From positions 102,011 to 166,010 of the forward strand of contig CAZBXE010000001.1 of assembly GCA_964496125.1 (NCBI GenBank): a stretch of 64,000 nt of DNA, written 5' to 3'. The position numbers were made by a program, and so were the translations under genes. Below the pieces are notes generated by a model. The model had not been told where the DNA came from. It was given only the letters and a program-made list of their open reading frames with translations, and searched no databases. This document shows, in pieces, positions 60,481 to 60,817 of this stretch. This DNA comes from an uncultured bacterium. Lineage in GTDB: Bacteria; Chlamydiota; Chlamydiia; Chlamydiales; CAZBXE01. Positions within the stretch are counted from its first letter, which is position 1, and each line of letters opens with the position of its first letter.

Positions 60481-60647
60481 TGTCGAAGAAAATTGTGACA
60501 ATTGTAAGAACTCATTTCTCTCATTCTAGACTTAAAAGAACGTAGCTTGGCTAAATCCTTAAATTTACGGAGGCGTTCGTGTTTTAGAGTAAGTCGACCG
60601 AAGAGAAACTTATCCTAATATTCCCGAGTTTTCAATTCATTTGTGTA
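60481..60647. mobile_element. IS630-type remnant (N-terminal transposase scraps plus right end)
   Basis: It ends ...ATTCCCGAGTTTTCAATTCATTTGTGTA, the same right terminus as the MITEs. It contains TAAGTCGACCGAAGAGAAACTTATCCTA, related to the 35.45-kb palindrome. The left boundary is uncertain. Confidence 0.35.
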
Positions 60648-60649
60648 TA

Positions 60650-60817
60650 TACACAAATGAACTGGAAAGTTTGTTTCTGCCTGCGTCGGACAATCCCTCA
60701 ATTTTTGCCCGTCTGCATCGCTCTGGTTTTTAACAGAGCTGCTTCGACGCCTCTAACGCTTGCAAAAATTGAGGGCGCCTCCTTGGCATATTACCAACTT
60801 TCCAATTCATTTGTGTA
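60650..60817. mobile_element. MITE copy B (best-preserved; 168 bp, 22-bp TIRs, TA flanks)
   Basis: Left TIR is TACACAAATGAACTGGAAAGTT. The reverse complement of the right end is TACACAAATGAATTGGAAAGTT (21/22 match). TA at 60648-49 and 60818-19. No coding capacity. Confidence 0.75.

What the first reader, a model, noticed from the sequence alone, without database searches (positions are those of the whole stretch)
60481..60817. Best-preserved MITE (168 bp, 21/22-matching 22-bp TIRs, TA duplication) abutting an IS630 remnant, which defines a mobile family
Copy B has the following features:
- left TIR TACACAAATGAACTGGAAAGTT
- right TIR (reverse complement) TACACAAATGAATTGGAAAGTT
- TA on both sides, the target duplication typical of IS630/Tc1-mariner elements
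- no ORF

Directly to its left another element end (…TTTTCAATTCATTTGTGTA) abuts it. This creates the perfect palindrome TTCATTTGTGTATATACACAAATGAA (the full run, including the flanking TTCAA on the left, is TTCAATTCATTTGTGTATATACACAAATGAA).

With copies A and C and the 35.3-kb remnant there are at least four related insertions in 64 kb. All are in intergenic DNA next to accessory genes. The internal conserved core (CTTGCAAAAATTGA..GCGCCTCC.TGGCATATT) might fold or carry a promoter.
Basis: partly seen in the sequence, partly recalled or inferred. Interest (0 to 1): 0.6.

Follow-up and report, generated by a model that had tools for sequence, protein, structure and literature searches.

The report
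IS630-type MITE family in environmental chlamydiae
The 168-bp sequence is a real, well-preserved miniature transposon that needs a transposase supplied by another element; it belongs to an apparently undescribed but mechanistically ordinary family found in many environmental chlamydial genomes.

Summary
Window 60650-60817 is a 168-bp element with 22-nt terminal inverted repeats (21/22 matching), TA on both sides and no transposase gene. It directly abuts another end of the same type.

It belongs to a family:
- Six family segments lie in this 64-kb window.
- A pattern scan plus a profile search found about 31 full-length relatives in 12 Chlamydiota metagenome-assembled genomes. Nearly all are framed TA|TAC...GTA|TA within unrelated flanks.
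- Copies within single genomes are up to 99% identical.
- One insertion is absent from the orthologous gene of another species.

The ends match IS630-family (DDE_3 transposase) elements, including the internally deleted remnant at 35293-35817.

The whole element is a rod-like palindrome whose pairing is kept by two-sided changes with almost no G-U pairs. That points to DNA-level complementarity rather than an RNA gene.

- The left neighbour has no transposase remnant, only a roughly 30-nt solo end.
- The 'conserved core' is the inner part of a long inverted repeat plus one box, and that box is absent from another subfamily.
- No promoter or terminator consensus lies inside the element.

Verdict: a new member of a known kind, of modest interest.

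The parts
60650..60817 (+). Copy B: an intact 168-bp MITE. The terminal inverted repeats are 22 nt (21/22 matching), extendable to 27 nt at 93%. There is an internal 14-bp perfect stem (60695-60708 with 60762-60775) and an apical stem.
   Evidence: Family profile hit E 3e-41. Folds as a rod-like hairpin: DNA -40.4 kcal/mol, z -8.2; RNA -70 kcal/mol, z -9.3.
60648..60649 (.). Left TA flanking copy B. It is the presumed target duplication and is shared with the abutting older end.
   Evidence: TA precedes 26 of 31 family copies.
60818..60819 (.). Right TA flanking copy B, the presumed target duplication.
   Evidence: TA follows at least 27 of 31 family copies.
60618..60647 (+). Solo right end of the same family (ATATTCCCGAGTTTTCAATTCATTTGTGTA), abutting copy B through one TA.
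   Evidence: 88% identical over 32 nt to the right ends of B and A. Profile hit E 0.005. Upstream DNA has no transposase similarity and no hairpin.
60582..60617 (.). 36-nt hairpin-like segment, also present at 35455-35490 inside the IS630 remnant. Its meaning is unknown.
   Evidence: 86% over 36 nt. No other copy in the window or in any fetched locus.
16906..17074 (+). Copy A: a full-length but decayed family member with degenerate terminal repeats and TA on both sides.
   Evidence: 76% identity to B over the full length. Profile E 5e-33. Fold no better than shuffles, z 0.0.
22836..22890 (+). Copy C: the right-hand third of a family member, truncated on the left.
   Evidence: Profile E 3e-8 for 22836-22887.
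22891..22917 (+). A second family right end (TTCCGAGCTTTTTAGTTCGTTTGGGTA, then TA), placed directly after copy C.
   Evidence: Read from the sequence by comparison with the right end of copy A. Too short for a profile hit.
26685..26743 (-). Fragment D: an internal and right-arm piece of a family member.
   Evidence: Pattern match at 26686-26706. Profile E 1e-4.
35293..35817 (+). Internally deleted IS630-family element. It has a family-type left end (35293-35332). It encodes the last 99 codons of a DDE_3 transposase (35511-35807). The stop codon lies inside the right end (...GATGACTGGGTA), followed by TA.
   Evidence: Pfam DDE_3 PF13358, E 9.7e-15. 63% identity to residues 244-342 of an IS630-like transposase in L053. 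The left end matches MITE left ends at 82% over 39 nt and 86% over 29 nt. Profile E 7e-4.
35270..35292 (+). Probable solo right end (...GGGGTTTGTTTGTGTA), abutting the left end of the IS630 remnant.
   Evidence: Read from the sequence. Too short for a significant profile hit, so this is tentative.

Best explanation
Copy B is a non-autonomous DNA transposon (MITE) derived from an IS630-family insertion sequence. It keeps the two ends that the transposase recognises and has lost the transposase gene, so it can move only when an IS630-type DDE transposase is made elsewhere in the cell.

**Inferred mechanism (from what is established for IS630/Tc1-mariner elements)**
1. The transposase binds the long inverted ends.
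2. It cuts the element out and pastes it into a TA dinucleotide.
3. The TA ends up on both sides.

Copy B landed in the TA beside an older end of the same family, which produced the 26-nt palindrome.

**State of the family**
- In this window it is mostly decayed: A, C, D, the solo ends and the truncated IS.
- Copy B is intact.
- In other chlamydial genomes the family has amplified recently.

**The hairpin**
- The rod-like hairpin reflects the palindromic build of the element.
- Its complementarity is maintained at the DNA level, most likely because both arms must remain substrates of the same transposase.
- I found no evidence of a host function.

**Shown:** anatomy, family, TA flanks, link to IS630 ends, recent copies elsewhere, one presence/absence case.

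**Inferred:** mobilisation in trans, cut-and-paste chemistry, and why the pairing is maintained.
For: **Anatomy.** 168 bp, 21/22 terminal repeats, TA on both sides.

**Family**
- 38 of 52 loci from the genome scan carry family matches by nhmmer.
- They come from 12 assemblies labelled Chlamydiae/Chlamydiota, 'uncultured bacterium' or, in one case, Verrucomicrobiae.
- About 31 copies are full length.
- The other 14 loci are non-chlamydial chance hits, close to the roughly 17 I calculated for this pattern.

**Insertion sites.** TA|TAC...GTA|TA framing with otherwise unrelated flanks.

**Mobility**
- Within-genome identity is up to 99.4% (JABDDY) and 98.8% (OY970179), against a between-genome mean of 74%.
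- The copy in L022 interrupts a Fic-domain gene. The orthologue in L003 (70% nucleotide identity) is uninterrupted.

**Link to IS630**
- The window's DDE_3 fragment has a family-type left end.
- The right end of the IS630 fragment in L069 matches a MITE right end at 23/26 positions.
- In L063 a DDE_3 fragment end abuts a MITE, the same arrangement as at 60647/60650.

**Pairing**
- 95.2% of cells are paired, against 28-43% when partners are slid by 1-3 columns.
- 28 of 51 pairs show two-sided changes, and 0 of 500 shuffles reach the observed values.
- Only about 14 of 1222 cells are G-U.

**No sign of host function**
- Orientation relative to neighbouring genes is unbiased: 7 same, 7 opposite.
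- No Rfam family matches.
Against: - No intact transposase is present in the window, and the source genome is in no searchable collection. Current mobility and copy number in this organism are therefore unknown.
- Every related IS630 gene I retrieved was truncated or had in-frame stops. No autonomous partner with matching ends on both sides has been seen.
- The TA duplication is inferred from flanks. The one empty site (L003 against L022) is too diverged, at 70%, to resolve the duplication at nucleotide level. TA could formally be part of the element.
- Compensatory changes also occur in internal stems beyond the usual transposase footprint (helices 3 and 5). Transposase binding alone does not obviously explain that.
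Confidence: 0.88

Rival explanations
1. The element is a MITE by origin but has been co-opted. Its long hairpin would act on transcripts or DNA in either orientation, for example as a transcript-end stabiliser or terminator, as an RNase III target, or, through its ends, as a supplier of translation signals to neighbouring genes. The pairing would then be kept by host-level selection.
For: - Compensatory changes extend to internal stems (helices 3 and 5).
- Folding energies are strong.
- Copies are often packed within a few nucleotides of gene ends.
- In L003 the element end GAGGTTGTTTGTG offers a Shine-Dalgarno-like GAGG 6 nt before a GTG that is in frame with a FAD-oxidoreductase beginning AIVGTG.
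- Stop-free frames are about 4 times more frequent than in shuffles, 26 against 6.2.
Against: - There is no orientation bias relative to genes.
- No promoter or terminator consensus lies inside copy B.
- The hairpin is not followed by a T run.
- Copies in this window other than B have lost the fold, so the structure is not maintained once a copy is fixed.
- Covariation is between lineage-specific subfamilies and can be explained by amplification of different master copies.
Confidence: 0.08
2. It is a structured non-coding RNA gene or cis-regulatory RNA present in several copies, not a transposon.
For: Strong fold (z -9.3 as RNA) and clear covariation.
Against: - No Rfam match.
- G-U pairs are nearly absent, about 1% of cells. 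That fits complementarity on both DNA strands rather than RNA.
- Copies occur in both orientations, in unrelated contexts, and even inside coding sequences.
- Copies have TA-framed inverted ends shared with IS630 elements.
- Many copies are truncated or decayed.
Confidence: 0.02
3. It is a palindromic repeat of another class and is unrelated to IS630. Candidates are REP/BIME-type elements moved by a RAYT (IS200/IS605-type) enzyme, or an RPE-like element that spreads into coding sequences.
For: - Palindromic build.
- Two in-frame insertions in coding sequences: L022 in a Fic-domain gene and L044 in a signal peptide.
- Enrichment of stop-free frames.
Against: - At 168 bp with long inverted ends and TA flanks, it is not REP-like.
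- The ends are homologous to IS630-family ends.
- A profile of the element-encoded peptide found 82 protein clusters. All are 34-101 aa with no Pfam domain, so they are short ORFs called on intergenic copies and none is embedded in a real protein.
Confidence: 0.02

Closest known systems
IS630-family insertion sequences (IS630/Tc1-mariner superfamily, DDE_3 transposase)
   Same: - TA at both ends.
- Inverted ends homologous to those of chlamydial IS630-type elements: 23/26 positions with L069, and 82-86% with the left end of the window's remnant.
- As in those elements, the transposase stop codon lies inside the right end.
   Different: No transposase gene. At 168 bp it is far shorter than the roughly 1.1 kb of a full element, so it is a deletion derivative dependent on a transposase supplied in trans.
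Correia elements (NEMIS) of Neisseria (comparison from my own knowledge, not tested here)
   Same: - Roughly 100-160-bp bacterial MITE.
- TA duplication.
- Inverted ends of about 26 nt.
- Many intergenic copies that can fold into a hairpin when transcribed.
   Different: - No sequence relationship was tested or is expected.
- Correia elements carry documented promoters, an IHF site and RNase III processing, none of which is shown here.
- Their transposase is unknown, whereas here an IS630-type source is identifiable.
Rickettsia palindromic elements (RPE) (comparison from my own knowledge)
   Same: - Palindromic repeats of about 100-170 bp in an obligate intracellular bacterium.
- Occasional in-frame insertion that adds a peptide segment to a protein (L022, L044).
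   Different: - In-frame insertion is rare here: 2 of about 31 copies, and 0 of 82 protein clusters.
- Clear inverted ends and TA flanks tie this family to a known transposase family, unlike RPEs.
REP/BIME elements mobilised by RAYT transposases
   Same: Intergenic palindromic repeats.
   Different: REPs are 20-40 bp, lack terminal inverted repeats of this kind and lack target duplications. None of these REP features is present here.

Membership tests
Bacterial MITE (non-autonomous DNA transposon) | Small size and no transposase gene | tested here: met
   The element is 168 bp. blastx against IS630 transposases finds nothing in 60343-60660. The only ORF is a 56-codon stop-free frame, whose sole homologues are short ORFs on other copies.
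Bacterial MITE (non-autonomous DNA transposon) | Terminal inverted repeats | tested here: met
   21/22 matching, extendable to 27 nt at 93%. 0 of 100 shuffles reach 3 matches.
Bacterial MITE (non-autonomous DNA transposon) | Multiple copies in unrelated sequence contexts | tested here: met
   Six segments in the window. About 31 full-length copies in 12 assemblies with unrelated flanks.
Bacterial MITE (non-autonomous DNA transposon) | Evidence of movement (filled and empty sites, near-identical copies) | tested here: met
   In relatives only. The L022 insertion is absent from the L003 orthologue, and copies within genomes reach 98.8-99.4% identity. This could not be tested in the window's own genome.
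IS630/Tc1-mariner-derived element | Duplication of a TA target | tested here: inconclusive
   TA flanks 26/31 copies at the 5' end and at least 27/31 at the 3' end. This fits a duplication, but no empty site is close enough in sequence to show a single TA before insertion.
IS630/Tc1-mariner-derived element | Ends homologous to those of an element encoding a DDE_3 transposase | tested here: met
   The window remnant 35293-35817 encodes a DDE_3 C-terminus and has a family-type left end. The L069 right end matches at 23/26.
IS630/Tc1-mariner-derived element | An intact cognate transposase in the same genome | not testable with these tools
   The source genome is absent from all collections. Only a 99-codon fragment lies in the window.
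RPE-like coding-sequence invader | Frequent in-frame insertion into conserved protein genes | tested here: not met
   All 82 protein clusters matching the element-encoded peptide are 34-101 aa and have no Pfam domain. Only 2 of about 31 copies lie in frame within genes.
REP/BIME (RAYT-mobilised) | 20-40-bp imperfect palindrome, no terminal inverted repeats or target duplication | tested here: not met
   The element is 168 bp with long inverted ends and TA flanks.
Described RNA family (Rfam 15) | Match to a covariance model at or near its gathering score | tested here: not met
   The only hit was a 17-bit chance match (E 0.18, gathering score 40) in 60300-61050.

The most novel reading that the evidence does not exclude
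The family is more than selfish DNA. It would be a palindromic, stop-codon-depleted MITE of obligate intracellular chlamydiae whose hairpin is kept by compensatory substitution. It would tolerate being read through, occasionally adding about 57 residues in frame to proteins (the Fic-domain gene in L022, a signal peptide in L044) or supplying a start site (L003). This would be an RPE-like phenomenon, and here, unlike in Rickettsia, the mobilising enzyme family (IS630) is identifiable.
Probability: 0.1. Interest if true: 0.55.

Novelty: new member of a known kind. Interest (0 to 1): 0.3.

Why it matters
- **For annotation.** Copies of this family are currently called as short 'hypothetical proteins' in public chlamydial metagenome-assembled genomes (82 clusters). 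They also sit at contig ends in several fetched loci of one assembly. A family model would remove these spurious genes and flag repeat-related assembly gaps.
- **For biology.** The family shows that environmental chlamydiae carry an IS630-derived MITE that has amplified recently in some lineages (copies up to 99% identical). In the lineage of this window it is mostly relics. This gives a marker for genome dynamics in a group whose pathogenic relatives almost lack repeats.
- **Limits.** The mechanism itself is ordinary, and I found no described MITE family in Chlamydiae in the searchable literature. The Waddlia genome paper counted only repeats longer than 200 bp (PMC2878342), so elements of this size would have been missed.

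Tried and rejected
- **Locating the source genome.** Three window proteins and the 99%-identical RecR hit P0121 were not retrievable. Genome-wide copy number in this organism could not be measured.
- **The left neighbour as an IS630 remnant.** blastx found no transposase similarity, and the fold is no better than shuffles. Rejected as stated.
- **Programmed recoding in the split chlamydial IS630 genes (L053, L055).** The in-frame stops are at different codons, so these are ordinary pseudogenes.
- **Promoter or terminator in the element.** None found by consensus scan.
- **Rfam.** No family matched.
- **Plasmid collection** (blastn) **and viral contigs** (pattern scan). No match in either.
- **RPE-like reading.** Tested with a profile of the element-encoded peptide; only short domain-free ORFs were found.
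- **A full-length IS630 with both ends matching the MITE.** Six transposase hits were fetched, and all were truncated or had in-frame stops. Only end-level matches were obtained.
- **The 36-nt hairpin shared by 60582-60617 and 35455-35490.** No further copies were found, and its meaning is unresolved.
- **The window as Waddlia chondrophila, on G+C content.** Apart from the 99%-identical P0121, which sits on a 282.6-kb contig rather than a complete chromosome, the best RecR hits are only about 60% identical. I therefore do not think the source is Waddlia.

Full report
**1. The observation**

- The left end TACACAAATGAACTGGAAAGTT lies at 60650-60671.
- The right end, read as reverse complement, is TACACAAATGAATTGGAAAGTT at 60796-60817. 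It matches at 21 of 22 positions.
- TA lies on both sides, at 60648-60649 and 60818-60819.
- A second end (...TTTTCAATTCATTTGTGTA, ending at 60647) abuts the element. Together they give the perfect 26-nt palindrome at 60636-60661.

The repeat finder extends the inverted repeat to 27 nt at 93% and finds an internal perfect 14-nt inverted repeat, 60695-60708 with 60762-60775. The terminal repeat pattern with up to 3 mismatches occurs three times in 64 kb, all at this locus, and never in 100 shuffles.

**2. Other copies in the window**

BLAST and a family profile find the following:

| Segment | Coordinates | Evidence |
|---|---|---|
| Copy A | 16906-17074 | 76% identical over the full length, E 5e-33 |
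| Copy C | 22836-22887 | right part only, E 3e-8 |
| Second right end after C | 22891-22917 | read from the sequence |
| Fragment D | 26685-26743, minus strand | E 1e-4 |
| Left end of a truncated insertion sequence | 35293-35332 | E 7e-4 |
| Solo end beside B | 60618-60647 | E 0.005 |

- Only copy B still folds. As single-stranded DNA it gives -40.4 kcal/mol (z -8.2), and as RNA -70 kcal/mol (z -9.3).
- Copy A folds no better than shuffles (z 0.0).
- The 167 bp left of B also fold no better than shuffles (z +0.27).

**3. The link to IS630 inside the window**

- Positions 35511-35807 encode the last 99 residues of a DDE_3 (PF13358) transposase (E 9.7e-15).
- That fragment is 63% identical to residues 244-342 of an IS630-like transposase on a metagenomic contig (L053). 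It is 67% identical to one in Candidatus Rhabdochlamydia oedothoracis (L055).
- The stop codon lies inside the right end (...CAAGATGACTGGGTA, then TA).
- About 220 bp upstream, at 35293, the remnant starts with TACACAATTAAAATGAAGAATTGGTTTTCGTGCC. This matches MITE left ends from other genomes at 82% over 39 nt and 86% over 29 nt.
- The remnant 35293-35817 is therefore an internally deleted IS630-family element with ends of the MITE type.
- By contrast, the DNA left of copy B (60343-60647) has no transposase similarity at all. Calling it an 'IS630 remnant' is not justified; it is a solo family end.

**4. The family outside the window**

*The genome scan*
- The source genome is not in any searchable collection.
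- Its RecR has one 99% match, on an unretrievable 282.6-kb NCBI contig. Otherwise the best matches are about 60% identical, including Parachlamydiaceae and Protochlamydia sequences.
- Gene content also fits an environmental chlamydia: F-box/WD40, a tyrosine phosphatase and BrnQ paralogues.
- I scanned one genome per bacterial species with a 21-nt degenerate pattern from the right arm. It returned 52 loci.
- 38 of the 52 carry family matches (nhmmer). They come from 12 assemblies labelled Chlamydiae/Chlamydiota, 'uncultured bacterium' or, in one case, Verrucomicrobiae.
- The other 14 lie in unrelated phyla and show no family similarity. That is close to the roughly 17 chance hits I calculated for the pattern.

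*The copies*
- About 31 copies are full length: 168-172 bp, or about 217 bp in a subfamily with a roughly 46-nt insert.
- Nearly all read TA|TAC...GTA|TA. TA precedes 26 of 31 and follows at least 27 of 31, and the flanks beyond the TA are unrelated.
- Copies cluster by genome. The within-genome mean is 89%, reaching 99.4% and 98.8% in two assemblies. The between-genome mean is 74%. Those lineages have therefore amplified the element recently.
- Window copies A and B are only 76% alike, and B's nearest relative elsewhere is 77% identical.

*Other scans*
- A metagenome scan with the B-type tip found two more copies flanking dnaA on one contig (L059) and a 61-bp mini derivative (L061).
- The L059 copies and a second copy in L036 share B-type or related tips but lack the GCGCCTCCTTGGCATATT box.
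- That box is therefore not universal. Its invariance among my genome-scan hits comes from having searched with it.
- Viral contigs and plasmids gave nothing.

**5. Evidence of movement and of the parent element**

- One copy (L022) interrupts a Fic-domain gene. The orthologue in another assembly (L003, 70% nucleotide identity) is continuous across the site.
- The right end of a DDE_3 fragment in L069 is identical to a MITE right end at 23 of 26 positions. Looser similarity continues upstream into the coding region.
- In L063 the end of a DDE_3 fragment abuts a full MITE, the arrangement seen at 60647/60650.
- End-to-end placement recurs in the window at 22890/22891 and at 35292/35293. This hints at a preference for the TA next to an existing end; I did not test that statistically.
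- Every related transposase gene I fetched was truncated or carried in-frame stops, at different positions. No intact autonomous partner has been seen.

**6. Structure**

On 24 aligned copies RNAalifold predicts a rod-like hairpin of 51 pairs, 28 of them with changes on both sides. Counting pairs gave the following:
- 95.2% of cells are paired, against 28-43% when partners are slid by 1-3 columns.
- None of 500 shuffles reached the observed percentage paired, two-sided changes or covariation score.
- Two-sided changes occur in the terminal helix (12 of 23 pairs) and also in two internal helices (6 of 9 and 7 of 9).
- Only about 14 of 1222 cells are G-U.

The near-absence of wobble pairs means that the complement strand pairs equally well. 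That is what a DNA palindrome shows and a typical RNA gene does not.

The covariation is largely between genome-specific subfamilies. It can therefore arise from amplification of different master copies whose two arms must both remain transposase substrates. Whether the internal stems are needed for movement is unknown.

**7. Tests for a host function**

- No Rfam family matches.
- No promoter or terminator consensus lies inside copy B.
- Contexts are mixed: 14 between co-directional genes, 7 divergent and 4 convergent. Orientation relative to co-directional neighbours is 7 same and 7 opposite.
- Stop-free frames are about four times more common than in shuffled copies (26 against 6.2 in 20 elements). 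The copies are related, so this is descriptive only.
- Two copies are in-frame insertions in coding sequences: L022, and L044 where MRKWA[element]LFLLLATFAMG splits a signal peptide.
- A profile of the element-encoded peptide, searched against 5.8 billion proteins, found 82 clusters. All are 34-101 aa without any Pfam domain. These are short ORFs called on intergenic copies, so spread into real genes is rare.

**8. Verdict**

- Copy B is a well-preserved member of an IS630-derived MITE family that is widespread in environmental Chlamydiota.
- The neighbouring 'IS630 remnant', the 'conserved core' and the promoter idea are not supported as stated.
- I found no description of such a family in the searchable literature. 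The Waddlia genome paper considered only repeats above 200 bp (PMC2878342).
- The element is a new member of a known kind and of modest interest. Its practical value is mainly for annotating and assembling chlamydial genomes.

Noticed in passing
L022 3464-3636 (ORF 2620-3879), compared with L003 5115-6290: A family copy sits in frame inside a Fic-domain gene and adds about 57 residues without a stop. The orthologue in another assembly lacks it.
   Followed up: partly
L044 4257-4428: A family copy lies in frame within the signal-peptide coding region of a secreted-protein gene: MRKWA, then the element, then LFLLLATFAMGAEE. Whether the protein is still made or exported is unknown.
   Followed up: no
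L003 167-340: The element's right end (GAGGTTGTTTGTGTATA) places a GAGG 6 nt before a GTG. That GTG is in frame with a FAD-oxidoreductase starting ...AIVGTGLVG, so the element may supply the ribosome-binding site and start codon.
   Followed up: no
L059 1988-2161 and 3547-3709: Two family copies with B-type tips flank dnaA on a metagenomic chlamydial contig, each within about 25 nt of the gene. Their left ends both face dnaA.
   Followed up: no
L061 57-117: A 61-bp mini derivative made of little more than the two ends, TA-flanked, lies about 150 bp from tRNA-Asp/tRNA-Val genes. Those tRNA genes are homologous to the ones at window 8410-8617.
   Followed up: partly
window 60370-60389 and 60977-60996: A 20-nt inverted repeat (90% complementary) brackets almost the whole brnQ-to-ORF61001 intergenic region, including copy B and the solo end. 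It is not repeated elsewhere in the window, and its meaning is unknown.
   Followed up: no
window 35455-35490 and 60582-60617: A 36-nt hairpin-like segment (AGGATAAGTC...GACTTATCCT) is shared at 86% identity. One copy lies in the interior of the IS630 remnant and the other just inside the solo end next to copy B. There are no other copies in any fetched DNA.
   Followed up: partly
window 13643-13812 and 25810-25979: The tRNA-Thr(tgt)/tRNA-Tyr(gta) pair occurs twice, 12 kb apart. The mechanical ORF 25901-26683 overlaps the second tRNA-Tyr, so its start is doubtful.
   Followed up: no
window 58009-59118 and 59236-60342: Two adjacent minus-strand ORFs of 369 and 368 aa with visibly similar sequences. 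The second matches the Pfam branched-chain amino acid transporter family (BrnQ). They lie immediately left of the intergenic region that holds copy B.
   Followed up: no
L053 2341-3375; L055 2401-3354; L063, L064, L069: Every chlamydial IS630-type transposase gene fetched is truncated or split by an in-frame stop. The stops in L053 and L055 are at different codons, so they look like decay rather than recoding.
   Followed up: partly
Proteins P0241-P0322: 82 public 'hypothetical protein' clusters of 34-101 aa, mostly from Chlamydiota or 'Verrucomicrobia' metagenome-assembled genomes, are translations of copies of this element. They are probably annotation artefacts.
   Followed up: partly
L051, L043, L041, L026, L021, L045, L030: A subfamily of about 217 bp carries a roughly 46-nt G+C-rich insert in the left arm. 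The insert was not analysed.
   Followed up: no
L014, L020, L038, L049 (assembly CAYWKW01): These fetched loci stop inside the last roughly 54 nt of the element, at the edge of the stored DNA. L038 is the whole 4,928-bp contig, so that contig really ends in the repeat. For the other three the stored locus is shorter than the contig, and whether the contig itself ends there was not checked. A contig break here would suggest that the repeat fragments short-read assemblies.
   Followed up: no
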